Origin: Patescibacteria group bacterium
GTDB lineage: Bacteria; Patescibacteriota; Patescibacteriia; Veblenbacterales; UBA10138
Length of the DNA stretch: 64,000 nt
Assembly: GCA_041645215.1 (NCBI GenBank)
Contig: JBAZQK010000006.1
Coordinates: 12,116 to 76,115, forward strand
Reading direction: 5' to 3'
Of the stretch, positions 17,306 through 53,779 are shown one piece after another. Each line of letters opens with the position of its first letter. Position 1 is the first letter of the stretch. The notes beneath the pieces are model-generated. The model was not told the DNA's origin. It saw only the letters and a list, made by a program, of their open reading frames with translations, and did not search any database. Position numbers and translations under genes: made by a program.

Positions 17306-17350
17306 TTCATGCCTGAGGCAGATCCGCCTCTGGCGGAGATATTTACATTT
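17306..17350 (+). promoter_or_regulatory. Conserved upstream motif TTTTTCATGCC..AGGCAGATCC...GGCGGAGATATTT (copy 1)
   Basis: Near-identical to 53255-53320. Both copies lie 55-60 nt upstream of a start codon. The region 16990-17300 also carries GC-rich modules and GAACACTTAATCAC x3 direct repeats. Confidence 0.35.
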
Positions 17351-17403
17351 TAAATTTCCTATGGCTTGGAATAAAGGTCGTTTTAAACTAAAATGTATTC
17401 ATT

Positions 17404-29455: not shown

Positions 29456-29689
29456 GTGTGGCGAGGTAGTATTTTGGCATCTTCCGCCACCAGCCCTAAT
29501 TTAGTACCAGCCATCAGGCAGGCGGCAACCATTGTAACAAATGAAGGCGGTTTGACCAGCTATGCCGCCATCGTGGCTAGAGAATTTAAGATTCCTTGCA
29601 TTGTGGAAACCAGAATAGGAACGCAAGTGTTTAAAGATGGTGATGCAGTGGAGGTTGATGCTAATAAGGGGATAGTTAGAAAGTTATGA
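29456..29689 (+). pseudogene. Orphan PEP-utilizing swivel-domain fragment with catalytic His replaced by Tyr (GGLTSYAAI)
   Basis: The 77-aa ORF aligns to the C-terminal ~60 aa of the downstream paralogs (AIVTNEGGxTxHAAIVAREL.IPCI...GD.VEVDAN.G). It has Y where the phosphohistidine normally sits and lacks any N-terminal domain. Confidence 0.45.
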
Positions 29690-31182
29690 CAAAAAAGATT
29701 ACTCTACCACCCAAAGTCATAAAATTAGTCAAGGGTAATGAGTGGTACCACCAGCGGTTTGATGGTGCACCGATGTATATGTATTGCGTAGCTGAAGCGG
29801 AAATTAAACCGGAAGCGAGAAAGCCTAAAGGCACCGAGGCTAAAATGCGCGTGTCTTTTTTTATGCCCAACGGCAGAGGGGATTGGTATTTGGATATGGC
29901 TGATGTTAAACGCGGCGCGCAAATAATTATTGATTTGGCTAAAAAAGATGCACTTATAAGCCGGAAATTACTAAAGGCCTGGCGTAAGGACGAAGAATTG
30001 TTTGAAAAGTTTTTCTACCGGTTTGAAGCCTCATCATTAGGAAAATTAATGGATAAAGATTTATTGGCTTTATATAAGCAATATTATAAATTGTTTGTTA
30101 ACCGTTTTACATCTTCGGCCATAATAGACCATTTTGCTCTAGGTACGGATGAATACATAGCTAATATATTAAGAAAGGAAATGGGAAAAATTAAAAAGGA
30201 GTCGGAGTTTACCGAAATATTCAGTATCGCCACAGCACCGACCAAGCAGTCTTTTATTAATGAATCAGAGATGAAGCTGTTGGCATTAGCTTTAAAACCA
30301 CATCTTTCGGCAAAAGACTTGCAAAACTATCAAAAAGATTATTTCTGGATAAAAAATAATTATTACCAGGCTAGAAACCTGACTGTAACTGATTTTAAGA
30401 AAGAAATAAGTATTTGGAAAAAGTCTGGGGCTAATTTAACAGCCAAATATTGGCAATTGAAAAATGCGTCCCGGATGAATGCTAGAAAAAAAAATATATT
30501 GTTTAAAAAATATAAATTATCAAAATTGCTAAGAACTTTGTTAAAAATTTCTGACGATTTTACTTGGTGGCAGGATGAACGTAAAAAATCCACTTATTTA
30601 AATATTCACATTGGTAGTTGTATTTTGGGAGAGATGGCTAAGCGACGTGGGTACAACCCGGAAGTTATGAAATATTTACTGCCTGTTGAAGTTGGTTCAA
30701 TGTTTTTAAAAGGTATACCGTCGGCGCAAGAATTAAAAAATCGGCAAAAGGGTTGTGCTTTTGTGGTTTGGCATGGCGGTTTTTATGTGGCTACCGGTAA
30801 ACAAGTAACAGTATTACGAAACTTAATGTTTTCTTCTAAAAATAAAGATGAAGTCAAGGATTTAAGAGGTTTAACCGCGTCAGTCGGTAGGGTAATCGGC
30901 CCAGTCAAGGTGGTTAACTCAGTTAGAGAGATTAGTAAGGTAAAAAAAGGAGATATATTAGTGGCTGTTATGACCCGACCCGATTATATTGTAGGTATTA
31001 AAAAAGCCGCCGCGATTGTTACCAATGAAGGTGGAATCACCTGCCATGCCGCCATTGTGGCGCGCGAACTTGGTATTCCGTGTATAATCGCTACCAAAAT
31101 CGCCACCGAAGTCTTGCATGATGGCGATTTAGTGGAAGTCAACGCTAATCATGGGGTGGTTACTGTGTTAAAGAGAAAATAA
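29686..31182 (+). CDS. PEP-utilizing-enzyme swivel phosphohistidine-domain protein, paralog 1 (N-terminal ~390-aa domain of unknown function; no ATP-grasp domain)
   Basis: C-terminus AAIVTNEGGITCHAAIVARELGIPCIIATKIATEVLHDGDLVEVNANHG matches the PEP-utilizers mobile domain with conserved His. The N-terminal domain carries the family motifs YFWIKNNYY and WWQDERK. Confidence 0.75.
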   Translation: MTKKITLPPKVIKLVKGNEWYHQRFDGAPMYMYCVAEAEIKPEARKPKGTEAKMRVSFFMPNGRGDWYLDMADVKRGAQIIIDLAKKDALISRKLLKAWRKDEELFEKFFYRFEASSLGKLMDKDLLALYKQYYKLFVNRFTSSAIIDHFALGTDEYIANILRKEMGKIKKESEFTEIFSIATAPTKQSFINESEMKLLALALKPHLSAKDLQNYQKDYFWIKNNYYQARNLTVTDFKKEISIWKKSGANLTAKYWQLKNASRMNARKKNILFKKYKLSKLLRTLLKISDDFTWWQDERKKSTYLNIHIGSCILGEMAKRRGYNPEVMKYLLPVEVGSMFLKGIPSAQELKNRQKGCAFVVWHGGFYVATGKQVTVLRNLMFSSKNKDEVKDLRGLTASVGRVIGPVKVVNSVREISKVKKGDILVAVMTRPDYIVGIKKAAAIVTNEGGITCHAAIVARELGIPCIIATKIATEVLHDGDLVEVNANHGVVTVLKRK

Positions 31183-31185
31183 TTT

Positions 31186-32607
31186 ATGACAAAATGGCAT
31201 TGGTATATGCGTGGCACTATTTATCCGCATCGGGCCGATATTGGACAATTGGGTATTTTTAAGTATGGAAAATATAATTTAATTCCCATAACATCAGATT
31301 TGTATATTAACGAAGGTTCTAGAATGTGGTGGGCGTGGGATGTAGCTCAAATCACAAAACTAGGTAATGCTATTTTAAAACAGTGTAAGACTAAATCTGG
31401 CGTTGCCAAACATGTAAATAAGCTAATTGCCTTATTGAGCAAGGCCATAGAGTCAGCCGATATATTTAAACAGGGAGATTTAACGAAATTAAGTGATAAA
31501 GAATTAGCCGGACAGTATCAATTACTTTACAAAGATAATTTGGAAACCCACGGCATTTTAAATGAAGATGTAGATGCGTTTGATGTGGTGTTTGATAATT
31601 TTTTGCAAACAGAATTAAGACGCTATGTTAATTTAGCTGGGGATAAATTTATTTCCGTCTATAAAGATTTGTCAACACCTTGCCATACTTCATATTTGCA
31701 ACAGCAAAACTATGATACAGCTAAGCTATATTTAAACTCAAAAGGTCAAAGCGAAACGGTTGATATTTTACATAATGAATATTGGTGGACAAGCATGGGT
31801 TGGGAAAGTATGAAGCCGCACAGTAAAGGTTATTTTATGCATCAGGTAAAAACAATGAACCGAGTTTTGGCAACAAGGATTATTAATGATTATAAAAAAC
31901 AAGCCGCTTTAGTTGCCAAACAGCGCCGGAGACTGCTTCGCCAATATAAGTTACCCAGGCAATTTAGTCGCTGGCTATGGGTTTTGGATAAGTATGCCTA
32001 TTTACATGACTGCAGAAAAGAAATGCAGGTTAAAACCATGTATGCTTATCATTTGATTTTATTAGAGACTGCTAAAAGGTTAAAGATTAAAGAATCGGAT
32101 TTGGAGTGGTTATTTCATAATGAGGTCGCGGGTTTATTAAAAGGTAAGAGACTTAATAAAAAACTGATAGCTGATAGAAAAATATCAGTGACCTCCCAGG
32201 TAACATCTAAAAAAATAATTATAAATGAAGGGAATAAAGCTCATCGGATAAAGATTAAAAGTCTTAATTTAGATAGAAAAAATATTACTTTAGTTAAGGG
32301 TTTGGCTGTAACTGCTGGTTTAGTACATGGACGTGCCTTGGTTTGTCAAGGGGCCAAAGAGGCCATTAGCAAAGTTAAACAAGGTGATATTTTGATATGC
32401 CCCATGACCTTACCGGATTATTTGCCAGCCATGAAAATGGCTAAAGCCATCGTGACAGATGAAGGTGGTTTAACCTGCCATGCTGCCATAATCGCGCGTG
32501 AGCTGGGTAAGGTTTGTATAGTTGGCACAAAAGAGGCCACCCGGGTATTTAAGACCGGCGATTTGGTAGAGGTTGATGCTAATAGAGGCGTTATTCGTAA
32601 GTTATAG
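31186..32607 (+). CDS. PEP-utilizing swivel-domain protein, paralog 2
   Basis: KAIVTDEGGLTCHAAIIARELGKVCIVGTKEATRVFKTGDLVEVDANRG. N-terminal domain homologous to paralog 1. Confidence 0.75.
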   Translation: MTKWHWYMRGTIYPHRADIGQLGIFKYGKYNLIPITSDLYINEGSRMWWAWDVAQITKLGNAILKQCKTKSGVAKHVNKLIALLSKAIESADIFKQGDLTKLSDKELAGQYQLLYKDNLETHGILNEDVDAFDVVFDNFLQTELRRYVNLAGDKFISVYKDLSTPCHTSYLQQQNYDTAKLYLNSKGQSETVDILHNEYWWTSMGWESMKPHSKGYFMHQVKTMNRVLATRIINDYKKQAALVAKQRRRLLRQYKLPRQFSRWLWVLDKYAYLHDCRKEMQVKTMYAYHLILLETAKRLKIKESDLEWLFHNEVAGLLKGKRLNKKLIADRKISVTSQVTSKKIIINEGNKAHRIKIKSLNLDRKNITLVKGLAVTAGLVHGRALVCQGAKEAISKVKQGDILICPMTLPDYLPAMKMAKAIVTDEGGLTCHAAIIARELGKVCIVGTKEATRVFKTGDLVEVDANRGVIRKL

Positions 32608-32610
32608 TTT

Positions 32611-33255
32611 ATGGAGAATAAAACTTTTTATCTTTGGGATTTGGCTGATACCATTTTTATTGAAAAATGGAACGCTGAATTATCCGGCGTGCCGTCTTTT
32701 AATGCTTATGTGGAGTCTTTGGGATATGATTTAAAAACTATCAGTCCTTTAGATTATGAATTATGTTATGAAAAACCGTATCGTGATGGTTTATATGATT
32801 TATCAATTGCTGATGGATTTAAAGAAGTTCTAACTTGGACGAAAAACAATGGCGTTTTTACTACTGGTAACAAAGAGCAAATTAATTGGCGAGCTGAACA
32901 GTTGTTAAGAAAATATGGGTTTGGCATTCGTGACTTTTTGAAAGAGATATATAGCACTTTTGATTATAGTAACACCAATGTTAAAACCGAAGCTATGTTA
33001 GTAGATTTAATAGGTAAAAAATTTAAGCAAGGGCTTGGGATTATAGTTTATACAGACGATAGAGAGGCTAATTGCAGGTTTTTTATTAGTGCAGCTGAAA
33101 AGTGTCAAAATAATGGGGTGAGGGTTGAATATCGGGTGTATAATTTAGGTAATGATGATAGTAAGTTAGAAAAATTGTCAGATAACTATTATAAAATTGG
33201 CGATCTATATCAATTGAAAGATAATGAAGAAAATTTATTAAAGCCCAATGATTAA
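32611..33255 (+). CDS. HAD-like hydrolase (atypical motif I DxxD), putative phosphatase
   Basis: YLWDLADTIF (motif I-like), VFTTGN (motif II-like), IIVYTDDREAN (motif IV-like). Shares the atypical DxxD(T/V) with 39597..40205. Confidence 0.45.
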   Translation: MENKTFYLWDLADTIFIEKWNAELSGVPSFNAYVESLGYDLKTISPLDYELCYEKPYRDGLYDLSIADGFKEVLTWTKNNGVFTTGNKEQINWRAEQLLRKYGFGIRDFLKEIYSTFDYSNTNVKTEAMLVDLIGKKFKQGLGIIVYTDDREANCRFFISAAEKCQNNGVRVEYRVYNLGNDDSKLEKLSDNYYKIGDLYQLKDNEENLLKPND

Positions 33256-34690
33256 TCCTAATAAAAATTTGTGGCGGTGGGGACCAATAGACGGCCGGCC
33301 GATATATCCGGACCCGTGGTACGACGGTATGACTGTTAATATGAAGGCATTTTCACCGAGTTGGCCAAGTAGTTATTCTTTATATAAAAAAGACAGGTAT
33401 TCTTATGTTTGTGAATATGAGCCTTTATATAAAAACGCGGAGAAAATATTCGTTAAGTATATATTGAATGAAGCCAATTTTAAAAGAATATACAGAAAAT
33501 GGCGCAATATTGTAAAGAGGTTAGTCAACCTAAATGCTAAAATGTCCCCAAGTAGTCTCAGGTCGTTAAATGATTTAGAACTCTATAAAACAATCAATTT
33601 ATGGTATAAAGTTTATAGTTATGAATTTTGGGGTGTTGGGTTAGTACCGGAAATTGCTAATTTTGGCGGGGAATCATTGCTTAGAAATATACTTCGGAAA
33701 AAATCTGTCGTTATGGGGGCGGAGGTTAGTTTAATGGAAAAGTTGTCGGCGCCTGATAAATTTTCGTTTTATACGCAAGAAGAAATAGATCTATTAAAAC
33801 TTCGTAAGATAAAAGGAAAGCCATTAAATCAGTCTTTGGTTAAGCATCAGCAAAAATATTTTTGGATACTGAATAGTTATCGCCAGACTAAAGTTTTATC
33901 AGTGGACTATTTTGCTAAGTACTTAAAAAAGTTTTCTAATGTACATGCTAGAGACAGAATAAAGGCATTAAAAAAACAAATAAAAATAGTTAAATTTATT
34001 AAAGCAAAGTTAGTACGTCAATATTCACTAGGTAAGGACGCATTGATGATATCTAACAAATTAGCTTGTTGTATTTGGTGGCAGGACAACAGAAAATCGT
34101 ATATATTTCAAACTAATCATGTTATAGATGTAATAGTTAATGAATTATCTCGTCGCTATGATATTAGTAAAAGCGATTTACATTATTATGTTTTTAAAGA
34201 TATTTTAAAATTAATTAAAACTGGAAAAAAATTATCAATTAAAGAACTAAAACAAAGACAAAGTTATTTTGCTGTGGTTTGGGATAGGCAGAAAGGGACT
34301 ATGTATGTATCCGGAGGTAAAGCTAAAAAGTTATATAATTTGTATCAAATAAAACCGAATGTTAAGTCTATAAAGCAAATTAGGGGTGAGGCTGTTAGCG
34401 CTGGAGTTGTTAAGGGTAAGGTGAGAGTTATTTTGTCAGCCCGTGAGGTCAATAAATTACGACCTGGAGAAATATTAATAACCACTATGACTTCGCCCGA
34501 TTTTATTGTGGCTATGCGTAAAGCTGCGGCCGTAGTAACCGACGTTGGTGGTATTACCAGCCACGCCGCTATAGTCTCGCGTGAACTTAGAATACCCTGC
34601 ATAGTGGGTACCAGAATCGCCACTAAAGTTTTGAGAAATGCTGATTTGGTGGAAGTTGATGCCAATAAAGGAATCGTTAAAAAATTATAA
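33248..34690 (+). CDS. PEP-utilizing swivel-domain protein, paralog 3
   Basis: AAVVTDVGGITSHAAIVSRELRIPCIVGTRIATKVLRNADLVEVDANKG; QQKYFWILNSYRQ and CIWWQDNRK motifs. Confidence 0.75.
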   Translation: MINPNKNLWRWGPIDGRPIYPDPWYDGMTVNMKAFSPSWPSSYSLYKKDRYSYVCEYEPLYKNAEKIFVKYILNEANFKRIYRKWRNIVKRLVNLNAKMSPSSLRSLNDLELYKTINLWYKVYSYEFWGVGLVPEIANFGGESLLRNILRKKSVVMGAEVSLMEKLSAPDKFSFYTQEEIDLLKLRKIKGKPLNQSLVKHQQKYFWILNSYRQTKVLSVDYFAKYLKKFSNVHARDRIKALKKQIKIVKFIKAKLVRQYSLGKDALMISNKLACCIWWQDNRKSYIFQTNHVIDVIVNELSRRYDISKSDLHYYVFKDILKLIKTGKKLSIKELKQRQSYFAVVWDRQKGTMYVSGGKAKKLYNLYQIKPNVKSIKQIRGEAVSAGVVKGKVRVILSAREVNKLRPGEILITTMTSPDFIVAMRKAAAVVTDVGGITSHAAIVSRELRIPCIVGTRIATKVLRNADLVEVDANKGIVKKL

Positions 34691-34694
34691 TTAT

Positions 34695-34724
34695 CCGCTC
34701 CCATGCTCTAGAGCATGGGAGCGG
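34695..34724. promoter_or_regulatory. Perfect 30-bp palindrome CCGCTCCCATGCTCTAGAGCATGGGAGCGG (putative operator, copy 1)
   Basis: Perfect dyad with a central CTCTAGAG. It lies between the paralog-3 stop and the AGGAGG SD of the YerC-like gene. Confidence 0.55.
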
Positions 34725-34741
34725 AGGAGGAAATAAGAATT

Positions 34742-35053
34742 ATGCCACGATATAATGAAAAAAGAATACCATATCAGACTCAAGAAAAACTTCTTGATAT
34801 GTTTTGTGATATTCTTAAAAACATGAAAAAACGTCAGGACGTTAAAGATTTTTTAAAAGATTTATTAAATCGTCAAGAACGAGTAATGTTGGTACGCCGA
34901 TTACTGATAGCTGATATGTTACTTAGAAAGTTATCTTATCGTGAAATTACAAATAAATTACGGTGTGGCTCTTCAACTATAGCGCGAGTAGAGCGTTGGT
35001 TAAATTTTGGTCGAGGTGGTTACAAACTAGCTATTAATCATAAAGTAAAATAA
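34742..35053 (+). CDS. TrpR-like/YerC-YecD family DNA-binding protein
   Basis: ...REITNKLRCGSSTIARVERWLNFGRGGYKLAI matches the YerC/YecD (Trp repressor-like) HTH. AGGAGG lies 12 nt upstream of ATG 34742; the tracked ORF starts at 34715, inside the palindrome. Confidence 0.65.
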   Translation: MPRYNEKRIPYQTQEKLLDMFCDILKNMKKRQDVKDFLKDLLNRQERVMLVRRLLIADMLLRKLSYREITNKLRCGSSTIARVERWLNFGRGGYKLAINHKVK

Positions 35054-35057
35054 TTAG

Positions 35058-35085
35058 TGCTCCCATGCTCTAGAGCATGGGAGCA
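35058..35085. promoter_or_regulatory. Second copy of the palindrome (TGCTCCCATGCTCTAGAGCATGGGAGCA)
   Basis: 28-bp perfect dyad sharing the 24-bp core CTCCCATGCTCTAGAGCATGGGAG. It sits immediately upstream of paralog 4. Confidence 0.55.
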
Positions 35086-35094
35086 AAGGTCTGT

Positions 35095-36615
35095 ATGATA
35101 ATTAGTGAATTAACTAAAGAAATAAAGCGGGAAACTTGGTGGAGCGAAGAGTCACCAGGCACGCCCATGTTTTCTTTGTGGATACAGCAGTTCGTACGGC
35201 AATCTAAGTATTGGCATCCTAAATTGCCTAATATTATATTGGTATTTTTTAAAAATGATTTTTTATATGAAGAAACTCCGGAAAAGCAAAAACTGCAAAT
35301 CTGGAATTATGTTTTAGAACAGTATATTAAATATCCACAAATTCAACTGCGTCATTATAAGAAGTGGAAAGCCGTGTCTGAGAATTTAGTTAAAGAAAGG
35401 GAGTGGTTTCTAAAACACAAACATCATTTAAACAGCCAAGAATTGGCTGCGTCGTTTGCCAAAGTCAGCCAATTGATTAATGAGCACTGGCGGATTACTT
35501 GGGTGCAGGAAAGCGCTGATATTTTTACCACCTATGAGTTGCCGCAATTAATTCAAAAAGAAAATCCTAATTTATCGCTGGAACAGGCGACAGGTATTGC
35601 CATAATTTTATGCGCACCTGAATTTTTAAGTTTTATGGAAGAACAGCACACAGAACTTTTAAAAATAGCTATTTTGTACTATAGAAAAATTAAAAATGCT
35701 AAGAGGATTACTGGGGTTGATAAAAGGTTACGTGAAACCATAAATGGATTCTCCCAAAAGTATATTTGGTTATTGTCTAATTATAAAGAAGCTAGGCCTT
35801 TTGGTATTGGGCAAGTTTGGCAACAATTACGCTATGAATGCCAAAATAAAACTTTGTCTAAATTAAAAAAAGATTTAAAGAGTGTTAGAAGCAAAGTAGT
35901 TCGTTTAAAAAGACAAAAAAATAAATTATATCGGGATTTAAGTATTTCCCCCCGGCTAAGAAAAGCTTTTAATCTGCTTACTTTTTGGGCAACATGGATG
36001 GATGAGCGTAAACAAACAGCGCTTGTAGGTAATTGGTATTTGGAATTTTATGCCCGAGAAGTGGCTAAGTGTTTAGGTATTAATATTTGGAATATTAAAT
36101 ATTTTACTGCTGCTGAATTACATCAAGCTTTATCAAAAGGTAAGTTGCCAAATAAACTAGAATTAAAAAAGCGTCGTCGGTTTTGTGTGTTTGCGATTAC
36201 AAAACAAGGCAGCAAGATAGTGGAAAAGATTTATACCGGGGGAAACGCGACTAAATTGTGGTCATTAATATTTACTAAACCAACAAGCAGCCTAATAAAA
36301 GGACAAGTAGCTAGTGCGCCGATAAGTAAAATGAGTGGCAAGGTTCAGATAGTTTTAGACCCGCATCGCGATAAGTTTACCAACGGTCGCATATTGGTTA
36401 CCACTATGACCCGACCAGACTTTGTGCCTTTAATTCGGCGAGCTAGTGCTATAATTACTGATGAAGGCGGTATTACCTGCCACGCCGCCATTATTTCCCG
36501 CGAATTAGGTATTCCTTGTATAATTGGCACTAAAGTAGCTAGTAAGATTTTAAAGAATGGCAATAAAGTAGAATTGGATTTGGCATCAGGTGGGGTTAAA
36601 ATTTATAAAAAATAA
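35095..36615 (+). CDS. PEP-utilizing swivel-domain protein, paralog 4
   Basis: SAIITDEGGITCHAAIISRELGIPCIIGTKVASKILKNGNKVELDLASGG; FWATWMDERK motif. The start may be 35077 instead (inside the palindrome). Confidence 0.7.
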   Translation: MIISELTKEIKRETWWSEESPGTPMFSLWIQQFVRQSKYWHPKLPNIILVFFKNDFLYEETPEKQKLQIWNYVLEQYIKYPQIQLRHYKKWKAVSENLVKEREWFLKHKHHLNSQELAASFAKVSQLINEHWRITWVQESADIFTTYELPQLIQKENPNLSLEQATGIAIILCAPEFLSFMEEQHTELLKIAILYYRKIKNAKRITGVDKRLRETINGFSQKYIWLLSNYKEARPFGIGQVWQQLRYECQNKTLSKLKKDLKSVRSKVVRLKRQKNKLYRDLSISPRLRKAFNLLTFWATWMDERKQTALVGNWYLEFYAREVAKCLGINIWNIKYFTAAELHQALSKGKLPNKLELKKRRRFCVFAITKQGSKIVEKIYTGGNATKLWSLIFTKPTSSLIKGQVASAPISKMSGKVQIVLDPHRDKFTNGRILVTTMTRPDFVPLIRRASAIITDEGGITCHAAIISRELGIPCIIGTKVASKILKNGNKVELDLASGGVKIYKK

Positions 36616-36630
36616 GTTATATAGATAAAT

Positions 36631-38094
36631 ATGAAACTTTATTATATTCAAAGAAAATCCAGCATGTCTTCAATCTTATGGCTTTTGGGTTGTGGTTTAG
36701 GCATGACTCATTACCCAGTTAAGCAAGTTTATGCTGGGTATGATTTGGGTAACACTATTTGGCTGGGTCGTCGTGAGGAAGGGTTTCTGTGCGGCGATAA
36801 ATCTACTCATATTGATAAATTGGTTAGTTCATTTCAAAATTATGTTTTAAAGAATCCACGGCATGTATTTAATATAAAAAAAATATTTTTAAACAGGTCA
36901 CGTAAATTAGTTGGTTTAGTCAAACATTTAGCCAGTTTTGATTATACCGAGGCCAGCAACAGTCAATTGTATGATGATTATAAAAGAGTAGTGGATAGTT
37001 ATAAGGAAGTTTATACTTACGGTGAGCCGTTAGCCATTGCCTTGGGAAATTTTTCCGATAGGATAAAAAAACATTTTATACCCCAGGGCATGACCGATGC
37101 TGATTATGAAATTTTGCTCTTACCCCAGGAACTTTCTTTTGTGCAAAGAGAGAGGCTGGATTTATTGGAAATAGCTTGTCTGGTTAAAAATGGAAAAGTG
37201 GATAAAAAGATTAAACAATTATTACAAAGTCATGTGGCTAAGTATACTTGGTTGCCATATGATTATGGCGTTACCAGTTATAAAATTGACCATTTTATTA
37301 AAGAGCTGAAAAAACTGGTTAACAAGGGGCGGCGGCAAATTTTAGCAAATTATCGCCACCTTGCTAACTATTCTCGAAATTTACAAAAGCAGCAAAATAA
37401 CATAGCGGCTAAATATAAATTTAATAACAAGCAGCAAAGTTTAATTGAAATTGTTAGAACCACTTTTTATTTGGTTGATTATAAAAAAGAATTATTTACG
37501 CAACTTCATTGGTATTCAGAAAGATTATTTATAGAAGTAAGCCGCCGACTAAAAACGCCCCAGCATTTAGTAAGGTATATGTTGCCGTATGAAGTGAGTA
37601 TGTGTTTGCTAAAGGGAGTACCCGTAAAAAAACTGCAAATCCAATCGCGTTACAATAATTGTGTAATTACTATTAAAAAATCAGGAAGGGTGAACGTTAT
37701 TGATGGTAATAAAGCTAAATTGATAATTGATAACTTTATCAGTTCACATAAAAAGGGTGAAAAGCGGGATTATTTATCCGGGCGCGTTGGTAATTCAGGA
37801 AGCGCGCGTGGTTTGGTAAGAGTAATTATGGATGCCAGAAAAATAGATACTTTTAAACATGGGGAAATATTGGTAGCACCCATGACTTCACCCGATTATA
37901 TACTGGCCATACGCAAAGCGGCAGCGATAGTGACGGATGAAGGCGGTACAACCTGCCACGCCGCCATTGTCTCGCGAGAACTTAATATACCCTGCGTTAT
38001 TGCCACCAAGAAAGCCACCCAAGTCTTTAAGACTGGTGATATGGTGGAAGTAGATGCTACGCGTGGTATAGTAAGATTATTAAAATCATCTTAA
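36631..38094 (+). CDS. PEP-utilizing swivel-domain protein, paralog 5
   Basis: AAIVTDEGGTTCHAAIVSRELNIPCVIATKKATQVFKTGDMVEVDATRG. Confidence 0.75.
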   Translation: MKLYYIQRKSSMSSILWLLGCGLGMTHYPVKQVYAGYDLGNTIWLGRREEGFLCGDKSTHIDKLVSSFQNYVLKNPRHVFNIKKIFLNRSRKLVGLVKHLASFDYTEASNSQLYDDYKRVVDSYKEVYTYGEPLAIALGNFSDRIKKHFIPQGMTDADYEILLLPQELSFVQRERLDLLEIACLVKNGKVDKKIKQLLQSHVAKYTWLPYDYGVTSYKIDHFIKELKKLVNKGRRQILANYRHLANYSRNLQKQQNNIAAKYKFNNKQQSLIEIVRTTFYLVDYKKELFTQLHWYSERLFIEVSRRLKTPQHLVRYMLPYEVSMCLLKGVPVKKLQIQSRYNNCVITIKKSGRVNVIDGNKAKLIIDNFISSHKKGEKRDYLSGRVGNSGSARGLVRVIMDARKIDTFKHGEILVAPMTSPDYILAIRKAAAIVTDEGGTTCHAAIVSRELNIPCVIATKKATQVFKTGDMVEVDATRGIVRLLKSS

Positions 38095-38112
38095 TTATTA
38101 ATTGTTATTTAT

Positions 38113-39600
38113 ATGTCTGGAGCAGTCGCAAGATCAGGGCCTTGGCGGATTAAACCATCGGGTAAATTGCCAATTTTTTTACGTTTTATGATTAATTCCG
38201 GTTTTGACCATAAAATTTCTAATAAGGTTGGCTTTAAAAACCATATAGTTAATCGGGTGTATTTGAATCACATGATGTATTGGCCCGCTAAGGAATATAA
38301 TAAATTTGAAGCGGAAATCATTAACCATTTGAAGAAAAATGATGGCTGGATTGAAAAATATTGTGCTCGTGAACTAAAAAAATCAGAGCATCTTTATAAC
38401 TTGGGTTTACGTTTAAAAAAGGTTGATTGGTCCAGAAAAACTAACCAAGAAATGAGGATCATTCTCAATAGTATATTGGAAAAATATCGCGAGTTGGCCT
38501 GTCCATGGTATGCGCAATATTCTATTGATGTTTATTGCGAGGATGTTATTGAAGAAGAGTTACTAAAGTATATACCCGCTGGCCATCCGGATTTTAGAAA
38601 ACTGGTTTTGATATTTACTGACCCCAAGGCTATGACAGACGTAGCTGAGGAAAGGTGGAATTTAATGAAATTAGCAAAAAAGTTACAGAATAATAAGGAA
38701 AAGATGGATAAACTTTCTACGCAAGTTGTTAATCTTATAAATAAACATCTGGATAAATTTGCTTATATAAACAGAGGTTTAGCCACTAGTAAGCCATATA
38801 ATTTTAGAGATATGGTTAAGAGAATTAAAGAAGCCTGGGCGTCAAAAGAGACTTTAGACAGTTTAATTTATTATAGTTCACCCCAAAAAATAAAAAATGA
38901 TTACAAATGGGCTGTTAAACAAATAAACCCAAGTAAAAATTTTATTAAAATCATTAATCAGGCCAGATTGCACTCTTATACTAGAAATAGGCGCGTTGAA
39001 GCTTTCTTTTTGGCTGATTATGGCGCCAGCTTTATGTACCATGAAATAGCGAAAAGAAGCAAATTTAATCCTAATTGGATTATGGAAGTGTCGATTCCGG
39101 AGATGTATGGAGCTTTAAAGGGCGAACCATTGCCAAGTAAGGAAGAAATGAAAAAAAGATTTACTAATTACGCCATGATTGTAAAGAACGCCAAAACTAC
39201 CATGATAGTTGACCCCAAAAAAATAAAGCAATTGGAAAGAAAATATTATGTTAATGTTAAATCAGCTGATCAAGTGGTGGGGCGTATGGCATGTATTGGT
39301 GGAATTATTAAAGGCCGGGCCAAGGTTTGTTTGGACAAATCGGAGATTGGAAAGGTTAAACGTGGAGATATACTAGTAGCCCAATTTACTACACCCGATT
39401 TTGTACCGGCCATGGAAAAAGCGGCTGCTATAGTTGCTGACCAAGGCGGTTTATCTTCTCATGCCGCTATAGTATCAAGGGAACTGGGCGTACCTTGTGT
39501 AATTGCCACGGATAATGGTACTAGAGTGATAAAAGATAATGATTTGTTGGAGGTTGATGCCCGTAATGGCATTGTTAAGATAATCAAAAGAGCTAAATGA
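38113..39600 (+). CDS. PEP-utilizing swivel-domain protein, paralog 6
   Basis: AAIVADQGGLSSHAAIVSRELGVPCVIATDNGTRVIKDNDLLEVDARNG. Confidence 0.75.
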   Translation: MSGAVARSGPWRIKPSGKLPIFLRFMINSGFDHKISNKVGFKNHIVNRVYLNHMMYWPAKEYNKFEAEIINHLKKNDGWIEKYCARELKKSEHLYNLGLRLKKVDWSRKTNQEMRIILNSILEKYRELACPWYAQYSIDVYCEDVIEEELLKYIPAGHPDFRKLVLIFTDPKAMTDVAEERWNLMKLAKKLQNNKEKMDKLSTQVVNLINKHLDKFAYINRGLATSKPYNFRDMVKRIKEAWASKETLDSLIYYSSPQKIKNDYKWAVKQINPSKNFIKIINQARLHSYTRNRRVEAFFLADYGASFMYHEIAKRSKFNPNWIMEVSIPEMYGALKGEPLPSKEEMKKRFTNYAMIVKNAKTTMIVDPKKIKQLERKYYVNVKSADQVVGRMACIGGIIKGRAKVCLDKSEIGKVKRGDILVAQFTTPDFVPAMEKAAAIVADQGGLSSHAAIVSRELGVPCVIATDNGTRVIKDNDLLEVDARNGIVKIIKRAK

Positions 39601-40205
39601 TCAAAGCAATTTTCTTTGATTCCGGTGACGTTATAGTAAGGGAAGGATTCAATCCCGGTATAGTTGAATATGAAAAAAAATATAGTTTGCTGCCAGGATC
39701 TCTATACAAATCTGCACACGACAGGCAATATTGGAAAGATTTTACCTTGGGTAATATATCCGAAAATGAATACTTTGCGGATGTAGCAGACGATTACAAA
39801 AAAGCAAAAATTGATACCACAGATTTTAAAAAGATTATCCAGGATAATTTTAAATTAAATGAAGAATTGTTAGATTTTTTAATGACAATTAAAAATAAAT
39901 TTATTTTAGGAGTAATCTCTAATCATCCCAAGGAATTTTTTGAATGGTGCAGACAATATTTTGGTTGGGATAAGATTTTTACCGTTTATGCGGTATCTGG
40001 TGATTTGCATGTTAGAAAACCCGATAAGAGAATATTTGATTATGCTGTTAAAAAAGCTGGTGTGGCAGGTGGCGAATGTATCTATGTTGACAATCGCTCG
40101 GACAGAATAGAGGGTGCACAGTTAGCTGGTATGCAGGTAATTATTTATCAGAATATCAATCAATTAAAAACTGATCTATCTAATTTTATTAATGTAACCG
40201 ATTAA
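39597..40205 (+). CDS. HAD-superfamily hydrolase (putative phosphatase)
   Basis: IFFDSGDVIV (motif I region), LGVISN (II), VRKPDKRIFDYA (III), CIYVDNRSDRIEGAQLAGM (IV). ATGA overlap with paralog 6. Confidence 0.6.
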   Translation: MIKAIFFDSGDVIVREGFNPGIVEYEKKYSLLPGSLYKSAHDRQYWKDFTLGNISENEYFADVADDYKKAKIDTTDFKKIIQDNFKLNEELLDFLMTIKNKFILGVISNHPKEFFEWCRQYFGWDKIFTVYAVSGDLHVRKPDKRIFDYAVKKAGVAGGECIYVDNRSDRIEGAQLAGMQVIIYQNINQLKTDLSNFINVTD

Positions 40206-40208
40206 TTT

Positions 40209-41204
40209 ATGTTAAAAGAAAACAATTACGAAACTCATGAAAAGATGATGGCCACTACTTATATAGATTTAACCAGACATGGTAACCGATATGGCGGGCC
40301 GATGGAAATTACTTTTTACGACGGCAGCAAAATTAAATTTGATGATTCTACTGACCTTACCGAAGAAGGTCGAAAAGATGCTGTAAATTTTGGTGCCGAA
40401 GGAATTCCACCCGAAGTTACATTAGTACATTTACGTGGTGGTGACGAGCCAAGACACGGTCAAACTGGCGATGATATAGTAAAGGGAAGTGAAAAATTTG
40501 GAATACACAAAGAGGGGGAGGAGCCGTCGCCAGTTAGAGACAAGGCCGGTCGGGTAAAGGGAGCGAGACGAGGGCAAGGGGTTGATTATGCTAGTTCTGG
40601 TTTAATGCCATTTCTCAAACCATTTAAGCAAATGATAAATGATGAACTTAATAAGATAGTTTCTACTTTATCTCCAGAGGAGCAAGAGAAATTAAAAACC
40701 AATCCGGAACTTAGAGCCAAATATCGTGAGCAAGCACAAGTTTTCGGCCTTAAAGCTGCTATTAATGACCCAAAATTGGCTGAAATAGCTGCCGAGAATG
40801 AGGCTAATGAGTTGCTTCATGTTGTTGAGTTGTCGCGCAGGGGGGTGAAAGCTGGTGAAATTAAATCAATCCCTATAGTTGGTAGTGGTCTTTTTGCCGA
40901 ATCTTTGTTAAAACACGCTTTGGTGGTGGAGGATTTAGAAACCGCTAATAAAAAGACTGGATTTGAGTCGGTTGATGAAATTGGTGGATTTACTAAACAA
41001 GCCACTTCTTTTAGGATAAAACTTATGCGAGATGCGGAGTTGGGTGACGCGCGTAATATGGAAGATTTTAATAAAGATACCAAAGTTGAATACGAATTTA
41101 CTGACCCAGAAAGAAAGAAGTTGTTTGGCGGCAAAAAAGTATCTTTGGACTGGAATATTGTTAATGAATTGGCAAATAAGTTTAGGTTTAAGCGCCAAGG
41201 TTAA
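40209..41204 (+). CDS. Hypothetical protein; possible histidine-phosphatase-superfamily domain at N-terminus
   Basis: IDLTRHGNRYGGP...DLTEEGRKDAVNFG resembles the RHG...LTxxGxxxA signature of PGM/SixA-like phosphatases. The rest is uncharacterised. Confidence 0.3.
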   Translation: MLKENNYETHEKMMATTYIDLTRHGNRYGGPMEITFYDGSKIKFDDSTDLTEEGRKDAVNFGAEGIPPEVTLVHLRGGDEPRHGQTGDDIVKGSEKFGIHKEGEEPSPVRDKAGRVKGARRGQGVDYASSGLMPFLKPFKQMINDELNKIVSTLSPEEQEKLKTNPELRAKYREQAQVFGLKAAINDPKLAEIAAENEANELLHVVELSRRGVKAGEIKSIPIVGSGLFAESLLKHALVVEDLETANKKTGFESVDEIGGFTKQATSFRIKLMRDAELGDARNMEDFNKDTKVEYEFTDPERKKLFGGKKVSLDWNIVNELANKFRFKRQG

Positions 41205-41210
41205 CGAAAA

Positions 41211-42041
41211 ATGAATAATTTACCAAAATTAAAAATAGTGTCAATAACTAAATTGTGTTTACATGAAACTGTAGACCCAAAGCGTGTTTTGAAATTAAAA
41301 AAAATAATTAAAAAAGCTCACCTTTTTACCAATCCGCCAATTGTAAGTTATATACCAGCGATGGATAAATATTTAGTATTAGATGGTGCTAACCGTACTA
41401 CTACGCTTAAAGAATTGAATTTTAAATATATTTTAGTGCAATTAGTGGAATATAAAGACAGTGTTGTTGATTTATTAACTTGGAACCATTTTGTGTCCCA
41501 AATTAGTTTGCAAAGAGTTATTGATTTATTTAAAGGCTATAATAAAAAACTTAATATATTAAAGGTTAAATCTTCACAATCTGCTAAAAATTTGTTAGAC
41601 ACTAAACCAGGTGTAGTTTATATAACAGATGGCAAATTACATTATGTAATTAATAACTTTAAAGATTTTAAGGATGAAATTGCAATTTTGAATTTTGCAG
41701 TAAATATTTACAAAGGTAAACATAATTTTAATCGGATATTGGGTGATAATTATAAAATTTTAAAAAAGGAATACCCGAAAAATAAAGTACTGTTTGTATA
41801 TAAAAAACTACTTCAGCAAGATATTATAAAAGTGGTTAGAGCCGGACTCTATGTCCCGAGTGGTATATCGAGACATATAATTCAAGGTCGCGCTTTAAGA
41901 GTAGATATACCGATTGTTTGGCTAAAAGGTGCGGCCTCTTTGTTGTCATCTAATAAGAAGCTAAAAAAGTTAATTAACTCCCGACTTTCTTTGGGACAAA
42001 TTAGATATTACAGTGAGCCAACTTTTATTTTTAATGATTAG
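41211..42041 (+). CDS. ParB/Sulfiredoxin-like domain protein
   Basis: IVSITKLCLHETVDPKRVLKLKKII...PPIVSYIPAMDKYLVLDGANRTTTLKELN fits the ParB N-terminal/Srx fold pattern (hhDG.hR...L). Confidence 0.4.
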   Translation: MNNLPKLKIVSITKLCLHETVDPKRVLKLKKIIKKAHLFTNPPIVSYIPAMDKYLVLDGANRTTTLKELNFKYILVQLVEYKDSVVDLLTWNHFVSQISLQRVIDLFKGYNKKLNILKVKSSQSAKNLLDTKPGVVYITDGKLHYVINNFKDFKDEIAILNFAVNIYKGKHNFNRILGDNYKILKKEYPKNKVLFVYKKLLQQDIIKVVRAGLYVPSGISRHIIQGRALRVDIPIVWLKGAASLLSSNKKLKKLINSRLSLGQIRYYSEPTFIFND

Positions 42042-42046
42042 ATTTT

Positions 42047-43534: not shown

Positions 43535-43560
43535 GACTACTGAATTTTTATATTTTTAAT

Positions 43561-44397
43561 ATGTTTAATAAGATAAGTTTTATTCAACAATTATTTCTAA
43601 ACCAAGCCAAACAGGGGAAACGACGTAAAATAGCCATTGGTATTTGGCGGCCGGAACAGGCAGTAGTAGACGGTTTAAAAGCCGCTACTGATTATGCGGA
43701 TTTAACAGTGGTTGGCTGTGATATACCTGGTCTTGATTGTATACCAACTGTTAACGATGATGAGGCTAGCCGCAAAATAATTGAATTGTTAAGGACAAGC
43801 AAGGTTGAAGGCTTTGTTAGGGCTCAACTCAAAGATTCCTACACTCACAAGGTATATTTAGAAACCTTTAAAAAAGAAGAACCTAAATTTAAATTCTGTC
43901 CATTTACCATAACTAATGATGATTATTGGTTTACCATTTCCAGTCCGTCTAATTATAACTCTTTAACTTTGGAAGCAAAACTAGCGGAGGCTGAGAGGGC
44001 CGCTAAATGGCTTAGTGATTTAGGTATAAAGCCAAAAATTGGTGTTACCAGTACTAGGCGTTTATCCGGGCGAGTTGGTGAATTTGGTTTACTGGAGGAA
44101 ATTGCTGAGAACTGTGAAAAAACCACTAAGCATTTAACTGATATGGGTTTTGAAGTAAAGGAATATTATATTGAGTACGAACGAGCCGTGTGGGAAGGGT
44201 GTAATTTAATAATTCCGTCAACTGGAATGATTGGCAATACCTGGTCTAAGGGTTTAACTTTTCTTGGCGGTTGGACTAATGTGTGCTGTCCTATGTTAGA
44301 TGAAGGTGTGTATTATGATGATACAGCTCGTAATCATGTAAATTGGTTTTGGCCTATTATCTCAACAGTTGCTTGGATAAATAGGGAAAAATCGTAG
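43561..44397 (+). CDS. Hypothetical protein (weak resemblance to phosphate acyl/acetyltransferase PTA/PlsX fold)
   Basis: KRRKIAIGIWRPEQAVVDGLKAATDYADLTVVG loosely matches the PTA_PTB N-terminal pattern. Low confidence. Confidence 0.25.
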   Translation: MFNKISFIQQLFLNQAKQGKRRKIAIGIWRPEQAVVDGLKAATDYADLTVVGCDIPGLDCIPTVNDDEASRKIIELLRTSKVEGFVRAQLKDSYTHKVYLETFKKEEPKFKFCPFTITNDDYWFTISSPSNYNSLTLEAKLAEAERAAKWLSDLGIKPKIGVTSTRRLSGRVGEFGLLEEIAENCEKTTKHLTDMGFEVKEYYIEYERAVWEGCNLIIPSTGMIGNTWSKGLTFLGGWTNVCCPMLDEGVYYDDTARNHVNWFWPIISTVAWINREKS

Positions 44398-44478
44398 GTT
44401 GACATATTTAATGTTTTGTATTACTATTAACAGTTAAATAAATCTAAACAAAAAAGCAAAAGGAGGAGAAAGATAATT

Positions 44479-45777: not shown

Positions 45778-45848
45778 TTATTTCTTCATATTTTAAAATA
45801 TCCCTGATTATGTATAATGTAGTCAGGGATTAATTTTTATTAATCATT

Positions 45849-53694: not shown

Positions 53695-53779
53695 TATTGT
53701 GCAAGGGGCAAGCCTCTGATTTAACTTATTTTCCTCCGCAGCTGTAAAGTTGGACGCTTTTTGGCAATTTAATAATTAG

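What the first reader, a model, noticed from the sequence alone, without database searches (positions are those of the whole stretch)
34695..35085. TrpR/YerC-like regulator bracketed by two copies of a perfect CTAG-centred palindrome inside the paralog array
The 24-bp perfect dyad core CTCCCATGCTCTAGAGCATGGGAG occurs twice: at 34695-34724 and 35058-35085. One copy is immediately upstream of the YerC/TrpR-like gene, between the stop of paralog 3 and its SD. The other is immediately upstream of paralog 4. TrpR-family proteins bind CTAG-containing dyads, so this looks like an autoregulated repressor with a second operator controlling the downstream half of the array. The long GC-rich stems could also act as terminators or RNA processing sites.
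Basis: partly seen in the sequence, partly recalled or inferred. Interest (0 to 1): 0.6.

Follow-up and report, generated by a model that had tools for sequence, protein, structure and literature searches.

The report
Conserved palindrome pair bracketing YerC regulator
The two identical palindromes are real and belong to a 28-bp element that hugs both ends of a small TrpR/YerC-type regulator gene in every Patescibacteria (CPR) lineage examined, so they are most likely that regulator's own, previously undescribed binding sites and not a genome-wide repeat or terminators.

Summary
Observation confirmed. The 24-mer occurs exactly twice in the window, with 0 copies expected by chance. It sits inside perfect palindromes of 32 bp (34694-34725) and 28 bp (35058-35085), which flank a 103-aa YerC/YecD-family TrpR-fold gene (34742-35053).

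Comparative result:
- In 12 independent YerC lineages, a related 28-bp palindrome lies 1-11 nt after the stop codon in 12/12. An intact copy lies 9-40 nt before the ATG in 10/12. This holds whatever the neighbouring genes are.
- The consensus is YRCTNYCATRCT-N4-AGYATGRNAGYR. The motif ends sharply at +/-14.
- The best-conserved bases (C-A-T at -8..-6) lie where TrpR reads its half-site.
- The central CTAG is not conserved (5/12 lineages).
- A covariance model finds no further copy in the 64-kb window.
- None of the copies has a U-tract, so they are not terminators.

Best reading (about 0.5): these are the cognate operator pair of an autoregulated CPR YerC-type repressor. The downstream copy belongs to the yerC unit, not to paralog 4.

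Features an ordinary operator does not explain:
- symmetric compensatory variation between the arms;
- tight hugging of the ORF at both ends;
- exact 28-bp copies pasted elsewhere, including an in-frame insertion in an aldehyde dehydrogenase gene.

RNA-hairpin and mobile-palindrome readings therefore remain open. I rate it a new variant of a known kind, of moderate interest.

The parts
34694..34725 (.). Upstream palindrome. It is 32 bp and perfect. The conserved 28-bp unit is 34696-34723, with the dyad between 34709 and 34710.
   Evidence: Covariance model R1 scores it 48.5 bits. It lies 5 nt after the paralog-3 stop codon and ends 18 nt before the yerC ATG.
34723..34730 (+). Shine-Dalgarno GGAGGAGG of the yerC-like gene. 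It overlaps the last bases of the right arm of the upstream palindrome.
   Evidence: Read directly from the sequence. The true start at 34742 is inferred from the alignment of 10-12 homologues, which all begin M-[AP]-[RK]-Y-N-E-K.
34742..35053 (+). YerC/YecD-family TrpR-fold HTH protein, 103 aa. Gene callers start it at 34715, inside the palindrome.
   Evidence: Pfam PF01371, 64.6 bits. NCBIfam TIGR02531 yecD_yerC scores 49.6 against a cutoff of 42.2, while the TrpR equivalog scores 40 against 67.25. The best PDB matches are 3FRW, 3G1C and 3KOR. There are 98 close homologues, and those with a source name are all named from Patescibacteria.
35058..35085 (.). Downstream palindrome, 28 bp and perfect, with the dyad between 35071 and 35072.
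   Evidence: R1 scores it 50.8 bits. It starts 4 nt after the yerC stop codon and ends 9 nt before the paralog-4 ATG at 35095.
34686..34691 (+). TATAAT hexamer that overlaps the paralog-3 stop codon, 2 nt before the palindrome. It is a possible weak internal -10 element and has no matching -35.
   Evidence: Read from the sequence. The promoter scan does not call it. This part is inference only.
33248..34690 (+). PEP-utilizers paralog 3, the upstream neighbour (context).
   Evidence: PF00391, E 1.8e-24.
35095..36615 (+). PEP-utilizers paralog 4, the downstream neighbour (context).
   Evidence: PF00391, E 8.3e-23.

Best explanation
The two palindromes are the cognate DNA-binding sites (operators) of the dimeric YerC/TrpR-fold protein encoded between them. 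This pairing of protein and site is conserved across Patescibacteria.

Proposed mechanism, all inferred:
- The dimer places its two recognition helices (invariant T-I-A-R-V-E-R-W) on the conserved C-A-T / A-T-G blocks. These sit at -8..-6 and +6..+8, which is TrpR-like 5-8-5 spacing.
- Binding at the upstream site represses yerC. It either occludes yerC's own promoter or blocks RNA polymerase coming from the upstream paralogs.
- The downstream site, which always sits directly after the stop codon, is a second site of the same unit. It could cooperate with the first across the roughly 360-bp gene, or block read-through.
- Inside this operon the bound protein would therefore also gate transcription into paralogs 4-7.

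Shown here: the sites, their conservation, their linkage to the gene, their geometry, and their position relative to promoters.
Inferred: binding itself, repression, looping or roadblock, and the effector.
For: 1. Linkage. In 12 independent lineages (55-88% protein identity) a related palindrome follows the stop codon in 12/12, and an intact copy precedes the ATG in 10/12. The neighbouring genes differ: PEP-utilizers, recG, a TPP enzyme, translin, PPDK_N, PIN, DJ-1, enolase, dut/thyX, NUDIX.
2. Specificity. Model R1 scores true copies at 24-51 bits and the best background hit at 12.8 bits or less, over 64 kb of window plus about 220 kb of loci.
3. Sequence conservation, not just structure. The motif carries about 17 bits per half-site and ends sharply at +/-14. 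A(-7) and T(-6) are invariant. The minimal core YCATR-N8-YATGR occurs only at these two places in the window.
4. Geometry. The information peak lies in the -9..-5 window where TrpR reads GNACT with an 8-bp spacer, and where HisR motifs are conserved (PMC9413887). The variable and sometimes asymmetric central 4-8 bp behaves like that spacer.
5. Protein. It passes the YerC/YecD family cutoff, and its recognition helix is nearly invariant across lineages. That matches the conserved half-site.
6. Precedent. YerC is HisR, a co-repressor-dependent DNA-binding repressor that binds palindromes. About half of hisR genes are preceded by their own site.
7. Promoter overlap. In L022 the upstream gene ends in a canonical terminator, and every candidate yerC promoter overlaps the palindrome. 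In L020, TTGACA-17-TAGAGT overlaps it. In L007, TTGAGT-17-TGtTATAAT ends 15 nt before it.
8. Footprint and co-divergence. L012 and L015 keep identical upstream and downstream palindromes while the flanks have diverged. Palindrome subtypes follow the protein tree.
Against: - No binding data exist.
- A 28-bp site with information at 12 of 14 half-site positions is larger than a single TrpR-type dimer normally reads.
- The arms co-vary symmetrically, even between the two sites of one genome (L012/L015: CTACCATG against CTTCTATG, each site perfectly symmetric). Nine of 12 pairs show compensatory changes and 93% of cells are paired. A dimer reading two independent half-sites does not require that.
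- The downstream site being fixed 1-11 nt after the stop codon has no obvious operator logic.
- The solo copies in the Kerfeldbacteria MAG lie in 3' UTRs, between a stop codon and a canonical terminator. No promoter is expected there.
- Exact 28-bp copies appear in new places (L015 aldehyde dehydrogenase CDS; L018 gene junction). That needs a copy mechanism.
- In the window itself no convincing promoter accompanies either copy.
- The spacing between the two sites (353-397 bp) shows no helical phasing.
Confidence: 0.5

Rival explanations
1. RNA-level cassette. The palindromes act as stem-loops in the polycistronic transcript. One sits directly 5' of the yerC ribosome-binding site and one directly 3' of the stop codon. 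An endoribonuclease or RNA-binding factor recognises them, so a short hairpin-capped and stabilised monocistronic yerC mRNA is cut out of whatever operon it sits in. YerC need not bind them.
For: - The stems are very stable, at -28 and -23 kcal/mol.
- Compensatory covariation is seen in 9 of 12 pairs.
- Each site keeps its own perfect pairing even where the upstream and downstream copies differ.
- The centre behaves like a loop: variable, often asymmetric, 4-8 nt.
- Both copies hug the ORF, ending 9-18 nt before the ATG and starting 1-11 nt after the stop, while the outer spacers vary.
- Extra copies lie at gene junctions or in 3' UTRs ahead of terminators.
- Mismatches in imperfect copies lean towards G.U on the transcribed strand, about 12 against 5 A.C. 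This is not significant (one-sided p about 0.07) and is confounded by C-to-T mutation bias.
Against: - A generic hairpin does not explain about 17 bits per half-site of sequence conservation across classes of Patescibacteria.
- It does not explain why the upstream and downstream copies of one genome share even their loop sequence.
- It does not explain why the element is tied to one gene that encodes a sequence-specific DNA-binding protein.
- No Rfam family matches.
- In L022 and L020 the likely transcription start lies inside or after the upstream palindrome, so the full hairpin may not be transcribed.
- In L022 the downstream copy is inverted relative to the upstream copy.
Confidence: 0.25
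2. Mobile or recombinogenic palindrome. The 28-bp unit is a copy-and-paste element, or a recombination site with 11-6-11 geometry like Xer/dif or pdif sites. yerC is either its cognate binding protein, in an arrangement that resembles REP elements flanking a RAYT gene, or a cargo gene bracketed by two sites.
For: - An exact 28/28 copy of the L015 upstream type is inserted in frame in an aldehyde dehydrogenase gene. The insert gives CYHALEHG and appears as an 8-aa (27-nt) gap in the 71%-identical orthologue.
- The L018 third copy is identical to the L018 upstream copy, including its non-consensus T, but has unrelated flanks.
- Solo copies sit on two other contigs of a Kerfeldbacteria MAG.
- Some copies extend their palindromy with copy-specific bases, up to 38 bp in L002.
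- The unit boundary is sharp at 28 bp.
- Assemblies break at the copies.
Against: - Copy number is very low: 2 in 64 kb, and extra copies are mostly within 2 kb of yerC.
- There are no target-site duplications.
- No transposase, RAYT or recombinase gene is linked in any locus.
- The GTAG/CGTC tag of REP superfamilies (PMC3733652) is absent.
- The YerC protein has no nuclease or recombinase motif.
- The yerC gene is highly conserved, and its broad neighbourhood (holB-BNR-RRF) recurs in the window, L020 and L023. That points to vertical inheritance rather than a hopping cassette.
- The window shows no GC-skew switch as expected at a dif site.
- The apparent insertion in pheT (L003) turned out not to be an insertion.
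Confidence: 0.12
3. The palindromes are ordinary intrinsic terminators or attenuators that subdivide the paralog array.
For: They are GC-rich 12-14 bp stems in intergenic gaps. On the minus strand the A-rich gene ends provide a T-rich tail, and the scan flags copy 2 on the minus strand.
Against: - No T-run follows any of about 25 copies on the coding strand.
- This genome and its relatives use canonical stem-plus-T-run terminators (window 12873-12906, L001, L002, L016, L022). In three cases such a terminator follows the palindrome.
- No minus-strand genes are present for the minus-strand configuration to terminate.
Confidence: 0.03

Closest known systems
HisR (B. subtilis YerC and orthologues), the histidine-dependent repressor of the TrpR family (PMC9413887)
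   Same: It belongs to the same protein family: TIGR02531 is passed, and the best PDB hits are the YerC/HisR structures 3FRW, 3G1C and 3KOR. It is a small all-helical HTH protein with a palindromic target whose conserved bases sit around -9..-4. A site lies in front of its own gene, as in about half of hisR genes.
   Different: The motif is a different sequence and is 28 bp, not 20 (YRCTNYCATRCT-N4-... against cacTTTA-N6-TAAAgtg). No HisR-type site is enriched in the window. No his genes are nearby, and from general knowledge Patescibacteria mostly lack histidine biosynthesis. A second site after the stop codon is obligatory here. The helix-2 effector region differs (FLKDLLNRQER is invariant, against the acidic HisR helix), so the effector is probably not histidine. 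That last point is inference.
E. coli TrpR and its trpR/trpEDCBA/aroH operators
   Same: The Trp_repressor fold (PF01371), autoregulation, a dyad operator, and the half-site-8-bp-half-site geometry.
   Different: The protein fails the TrpR equivalog cutoff (40 against 67.25 bits). TrpR's CTAG lies within each half-site and is functionally important, whereas here CTAG lies on the dyad and is dispensable. No trp genes are nearby.
REP elements flanking RAYT genes (REPINs); GTAG/CGTC-tagged REPs (PMC3733652)
   Same: Short, hairpin-forming palindromes that vary by lineage. They flank a gene on both sides and also occur as solo copies after stop codons and in 3' UTRs. They co-evolve with the flanked gene.
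   Different: The flanked gene encodes an HTH protein, not a Y1/HUH transposase. There is no GTAG/CGTC tag. There are a handful of copies, not tens to hundreds. The palindromes are perfect and symmetric.
Controller (C) proteins of restriction-modification systems and their C-boxes
   Same: A roughly 100-aa HTH dimer binds a palindromic box directly in front of its own gene and thereby also controls the next gene in the operon.
   Different: C proteins belong to a different HTH family (Xre-like). C-boxes lie only upstream. No restriction-modification genes are present here.
28-bp Xer sites (dif, and pdif modules of Acinetobacter plasmids)
   Same: The length is 28 bp, with two 11-bp arms around a 6-bp centre. 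In pdif modules, genes are bracketed by two such sites.
   Different: The arms here are identical, giving a perfect dyad with no XerC/XerD asymmetry. The sites are not at a skew switch. The bracketed gene is always the same conserved regulator. No evidence of excision was found.

Membership tests
YerC/YecD (HisR) subfamily of TrpR-fold regulators | The sequence scores above the curated cutoffs of Pfam PF01371 and NCBIfam TIGR02531. | tested here: met
   PF01371 scores 64.6 bits against a cutoff of 27. TIGR02531 scores 49.6 bits against 42.2. PDB hits are 3FRW (E 3e-9), 3G1C (6.5e-8) and 3KOR (3.7e-6).
YerC/YecD (HisR) subfamily of TrpR-fold regulators | HisR function: a 20-bp cacTTTA-N6-TAAAgtg operator in front of his biosynthesis or transport genes, with histidine as co-repressor. 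| tested here: not met
   The HisR consensus gives 7 matches at 3 mismatches against 5.0 expected, and none is better. No his genes were seen in the window segments or loci that were annotated. The effector cannot be tested with these tools.
TrpR (trp operon repressor, equivalog) | The sequence scores above the TIGR01321 cutoff. | tested here: not met
   40 bits against a cutoff of 67.25.
TrpR-family operator | A dyad with two 5-bp half-sites at -9..-5 and +5..+9, separated by an 8-bp spacer that is less constrained. | tested here: met
   The information profile peaks at -8..-6 (1.6-2.0 bits) and the centre is variable. However, there is additional strong conservation at -14..-11 and at -3 that the TrpR model does not predict.
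TrpR-family operator | The protein physically binds the site, dependent on a co-repressor. | not testable with these tools
   This needs EMSA or footprinting.
Autoregulated repressor | The site overlaps or abuts the promoter of the regulator's own gene. | tested here: inconclusive
   The feature is met in L020, L007 and L022 by consensus scans. In the window the site is intra-operonic and only a lone TATAAT is present.
REP / RAYT system | A GTAG or CGTC tag at one end of the palindrome, high copy number, and a Y1 (HUH) transposase gene flanked by the repeats. | tested here: not met
   No tag is present in any copy. There are 2 copies per 64 kb. The flanked gene is an HTH protein.
Intrinsic (Rho-independent) terminator | A GC-rich stem-loop followed directly by a U-tract on the transcribed strand. 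| tested here: not met
   No T-run follows either copy on the + strand, and none follows any homologous copy.
Described structured RNA (Rfam 15) | A match to a curated covariance model. | tested here: not met
   No hit reaches gathering score in the window. Around the locus only noise hits appear, with E above 1.
dif / Xer recombination site | A single chromosomal site at the replication terminus (GC-skew switch), with asymmetric XerC and XerD arms. | tested here: not met
   Cumulative GC skew rises monotonically through the window. There are two copies 362 bp apart and the arms are identical.

The most novel reading that the evidence does not exclude
A self-bracketed module found across Patescibacteria in which a TrpR-fold protein and a hairpin-forming 28-bp palindrome co-evolve. 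The palindrome is actively kept symmetric and is copy-pasted to new gene junctions, and even into coding sequence. This would be a REP/RAYT-like relationship without a nuclease, or a protein-plus-hairpin insulator that cuts operons into separately controlled segments, rather than a conventional promoter operator.
Probability: 0.17. Interest if true: 0.8.

Novelty: new variant of a known kind. Interest (0 to 1): 0.6.

Why it matters
From general knowledge, Patescibacteria/CPR have very few transcription factors, and almost nothing is known about their gene regulation.

- The YerC-type protein here is unusually conserved (55-88% identity across classes; invariant FLKDLLNRQER and RWLxFGRGGY blocks), and so is its candidate 28-bp target. 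This gives a directly testable regulator-site pair for an uncultured radiation: a 103-aa protein and a 28-bp duplex.
- The gene recurrently sits next to PEP-utilizers, PPDK_N or enolase genes. That hints at control of PEP/pyruvate-linked functions.
- The bracket architecture, the symmetric covariation and the pasted copies are not explained by the textbook operator model. They could reveal a new way of insulating a gene inside an operon, or of spreading binding sites.
- Practical points: the palindromes break short-read assemblies, and they mislead gene callers into starting genes at the ATG inside the CATGGGAG arm.

Tried and rejected
- **Widespread repeat.** Rejected. Model R1 with filters off finds only 2 copies in the window. 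The 20-mer core occurs in 1 other MAG in genome contigs and on 1 metagenome contig. It gives nothing in viral contigs.
- **In-frame insertion in pheT (L003).** Rejected. Orthologues have the same length at that point (DSAAVEHGIMDL against DSHALEHGIMDL). About one chance 20-mer hit is expected in a collection of that size (my estimate).
- **L016 third copy (3197-3222).** Its outer arms and -3/-11 depart from the consensus and from L016's own copies. I treat it as doubtful.
- **G.U-versus-A.C strand test for an RNA role.** About 12 against 5, one-sided p about 0.07, and confounded by C-to-T bias. Inconclusive.
- **Long-range pairing of the upstream copy with the downstream copy** (an rRNA-like processing stem). 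Disfavoured, because the L012/L015 upstream and downstream copies differ at 4 positions while each stays self-complementary.
- **Helical phasing of the two sites for looping.** None is seen; the spacing is 353-397 bp.
- **Target-site duplications around the cassette.** None are present in the sequence.
- **Protein-DNA co-variation.** The K/R77 lineages L007 and L016 have G at -12, but they cluster together in the tree. That counts as one event at most.
- **Other searches.** Rfam gives no family. There are no YerC homologues in plasmids and only one weak phage hit. There are no relatives in viral contigs. The HisR motif is not enriched.
- **CRISPR or integron attC readings.** Dismissed. There are only two copies with a 334-bp gene between them, and the stems are perfect, without extrahelical bases.

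Full report
**1. The observation**

The 24-mer CTCCCATGCTCTAGAGCATGGGAG occurs at 34698-34721 and 35060-35083 and nowhere else in the window, even allowing 3 mismatches. Dinucleotide-preserving shuffles give 0 expected copies. Each copy lies inside a longer perfect palindrome:
- 34694-34725, 32 bp, TCCG...CGGA;
- 35058-35085, 28 bp, TG...CA.

The gene between them (ATG 34742, stop 35051-35053) is a 103-aa Trp_repressor-fold protein (PF01371, E 9e-18). It passes the NCBIfam YerC/YecD cutoff and fails the TrpR equivalog cutoff. Its closest solved relatives are the YerC/HisR-type structures 3FRW, 3G1C and 3KOR.

The flanking genes are two of seven paralogs that carry a C-terminal PEP-utilizers mobile domain. 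The same sequence is found 100% identical in two other assemblies (L004, L005).

**2. Not a terminator, and not a common repeat**

- Both copies fold stably (-28.3 and -23.1 kcal/mol). Neither is followed by a T-run on the coding strand.
- This genome uses canonical terminators elsewhere, for example the A5-stem-T5 at 12873-12906.
- A covariance model built from 25 family members (A1, R1) was run over the whole window with filters off. It scores the two copies at 48-51 bits and the next best hit at 12.8 bits.
- The minimal core YCATR-N8-YATGR also occurs only at these two sites.
- No Rfam family matches.

**3. The key comparative result**

I fetched the DNA around eleven other YerC homologues with 55-69% identity to the window protein. 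In every lineage a related palindrome lies directly after the stop codon, at 1-11 nt and mostly 2-5 nt. In 10 of 12 lineages an intact copy ends 9-40 nt (mostly 9-18 nt) before the ATG. The two exceptions are:
- L010/L011, where the upstream copy is split by two insertions;
- L023-25, where the 5' end of the gene is rearranged and three assemblies stop there.

The neighbouring genes differ widely. They include PEP-utilizers paralogs, recG, a TPP enzyme with a methyltransferase, translin with UDG, PPDK_N, PIN with an HATPase protein, DJ-1 with bPH_2, enolase, dut/thyX, and NUDIX.

The spacers on the yerC side are short and constant. The spacers on the outer side vary from 4 to 599 nt upstream and from 9 to 95 nt downstream. 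Both palindromes therefore belong to the yerC unit and not to the neighbouring genes.

**4. Anatomy of the element**

All sites were aligned on their dyad, with lineages weighted equally.
- Information falls to about 0 beyond +/-14, so the unit is exactly 28 bp.
- The consensus is YRCTNYCATRCT-N4-AGYATGRNAGYR.
- A(-7) and T(-6) are invariant. C(-8), T(-11), C(-12) and T(-3) are nearly so.
- The centre (-2..+2) is variable. CTAG is present in only 5 of 12 lineages. Elsewhere the centre is TATA, CCAG/TCAG, TTGG, TTGT, CCAC, TTCC or ACAT, and it is often asymmetric.

The strongest block does coincide with the -9..-5 window where TrpR reads GNACT on either side of an 8-bp spacer. Published TrpR and HisR motifs are conserved in the same window (PMC9413887). 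The recognition helix (T-I-A-R-V-E-R-W-L-x-F-G-R-G-G-Y) is almost invariant among the 12 proteins. That is consistent with the conserved half-site.

**5. Evidence for an operator**

- YerC of B. subtilis is HisR, a histidine-dependent repressor that binds 20-bp palindromes. About half of hisR genes carry their own site.
- In L022 the upstream gene ends in a canonical terminator, so yerC needs its own promoter. All candidate promoters overlap the palindrome, including a TGtTATAAT extended -10 that I read directly from the sequence.
- In L020 a TTGACA-17-TAGAGT promoter overlaps the palindrome.
- In L007 a TTGAGT-17-TGtTATAAT promoter ends 15 nt before it.
- L012 and L015 keep identical upstream and downstream palindromes although the flanking bases have diverged.
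- Palindrome subtypes follow the protein tree.
- Inference: a gene for a sequence-specific DNA-binding dimer that always travels with a sequence-conserved dyad is most simply that dyad's binding protein.

**6. What an ordinary operator does not explain**

(a) *Symmetric compensatory variation.* 93% of cells are paired, 9 of 12 pairs show double changes, and the covariation score is 0.41 against 0.19 in shuffles. This holds even between the two sites of one genome. L012 and L015 have CTACCATG upstream and CTTCTATG downstream, and each site is perfectly self-complementary. This points to selection for pairing in an RNA or DNA hairpin. Alternatively, it reflects mutational symmetrisation by template switching in quasi-palindromes, a known mechanism that I did not test here.

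(b) *Position of the downstream copy.* It sits almost on the stop codon in 12 of 12 lineages.

(c) *Solo copies in 3' UTRs.* The solo copies in a Candidatus Kerfeldbacteria MAG lie between a stop codon (mscL-like, rsmI-like) and a canonical terminator. No promoter is expected there.

(d) *Exact 28-bp copies pasted elsewhere.*
- L018 has a third copy at the junction between an HATPase_c gene and a PEP-utilizers gene. It is identical to the L018 upstream copy, including its non-consensus T.
- L015 has a copy identical to its upstream copy inside an aldehyde dehydrogenase ORF. It reads in frame as CYHALEHG, at exactly the place where the 71%-identical L012 orthologue shows an 8-aa (27-nt) gap.

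A similar-looking case in pheT (L003) proved not to be an insertion, because the orthologues have the same length there.

**7. Weighing the explanations**

The operator-pair model explains the linkage, the sequence conservation, the geometry and the promoter overlap. I give it about 0.5.

The RNA-hairpin cassette model explains the pairing, the hugging of the ORF and the 3'-UTR copies. It does not explain the sequence conservation or the exclusive tie to a DNA-binding protein gene. I give it about 0.25. The G.U-versus-A.C test is inconclusive (about 12 against 5).

A mobile or recombination-site reading explains the pasted copies and the sharp 28-bp unit. Several points speak against it:
- copy number is very low;
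- there is no transposase or recombinase, no REP tag (PMC3733652) and no target duplication;
- a conserved holB-BNR-RRF neighbourhood recurs around yerC in three lineages.
I give it about 0.12.

The explanations are not exclusive. A DNA operator that is transcribed necessarily also forms the hairpin.

**8. Consequence for this window**

The array from 29.7 to 45.8 kb is one co-directional, tightly packed block, with gaps of 4-18 nt apart from the two palindrome-filled gaps of 51 and 41 nt. It ends with a terminator-like hairpin at 45800-45830.

If YerC binds both sites, it sits as a double roadblock in the middle of the block. It would then control its own synthesis and read-through into paralogs 4-7. 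This step is inferred, not shown.

**9. Novelty**

I found no description of this element or of the CPR YerC regulon in the searchable literature.
- The protein family and the principle of an autoregulated TrpR-type repressor on a dyad are known.
- The 28-bp motif, the obligatory bracket architecture, its conservation across Patescibacteria and its copy-paste behaviour are new.

I classify it as a new variant of a known kind, with interest 0.6.

Noticed in passing
window 29700-45830: Low-GC island (34-36% against 42-47% in the flanks). It is one co-directional block of seven PEP-utilizers paralogs plus yerC, a HAD hydrolase and three ORFs with no Pfam match. It ends at a terminator-like hairpin (45800-45830). 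A 77-aa PEP-utilizers fragment (29456-29689) lies on one side and a PPDK_N gene (45849-46859) on the other. An ENA contig (L004, 100% identical) spans just this island. PEP-utilizers, PPDK_N or enolase genes neighbour yerC in 7 of 12 lineages.
   Followed up: partly
L015 3571-3598 (aldehyde dehydrogenase CDS 2983-4482): An exact copy of the lineage's upstream palindrome is inserted in frame. It adds CYHALEHG and disrupts the usual AG-x-P-x-G loop. The L012 orthologue lacks it.
   Followed up: yes
L018/L019 5904-5931: A third copy of the palindrome lies 5 nt after the stop of an HATPase_c gene and 9 nt before the next PEP-utilizers gene. This mirrors the arrangement of copy 2 in the window.
   Followed up: partly
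L001 1169-1198 and L002 5412-5449 (Ca. Kerfeldbacteria MAG JACRFM01): Solo copies with the same 26-bp core as the window. They are extended to 30-bp and 38-bp perfect palindromes with copy-specific bases. Each lies in a 3' UTR ahead of a canonical terminator, and no yerC is present on those contigs.
   Followed up: partly
window 34715 and 35077: Gene callers start yerC and paralog 4 at the ATG inside the CATGGGAG arm of the palindrome. The homologue alignment and the Shine-Dalgarno positions indicate true starts at 34742 and 35095.
   Followed up: yes
L005 position 1; L023-L025 contig ends: Short-read assemblies break at or just upstream of the palindromes. L005 begins inside copy 1. Three independent assemblies end 100-180 nt upstream of yerC.
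   Followed up: no
window 16990-17400: A 420-nt intergenic region with repeated AACACTTAATCAC and AACACTTTAACACTTG motifs in direct and inverted orientation, plus GC-rich hairpins. Positions 17295-17357 are 94% identical to the pheS-pheT spacer of an unrelated CPR contig (L003 8451-8513). This may be a small conserved or mobile non-coding element.
   Followed up: no
window 2855-2892; 12873-12906; 53779-53808: Other long perfect palindromes. The first is 38 bp (CCGCTTAAAATATTCACGG|CCGTGAATATTTTAAGCGG) and lies at a gene start. The second is 34 bp with an A5...T5 frame and looks like a canonical bidirectional terminator. The third has two 14-nt arms with a 2-nt gap. None is related to the yerC element.
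   Followed up: no
L010 4907-4977 (and L011): The upstream palindrome is split by two insertions (15 nt and 27 nt, the latter itself a hairpin), both next to the CATG blocks. The downstream copy is intact.
   Followed up: partly
L007-L009, about 1239-1280: A 42-bp perfect palindrome (GCCAGAGGTAGAGACAATTCATGAATTGTCTCTACCTCTGGC) lies downstream of a GIY-YIG gene. It is unrelated in sequence to the yerC element.
   Followed up: no
L003 9254-9275 (pheT CDS): A 22-bp perfect palindrome identical to the core of the element. It arises within native codons (SHALEHG) with no length change relative to orthologues. It is probably a chance or convergent match, and about one such hit is expected in a collection of that size.
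   Followed up: yes
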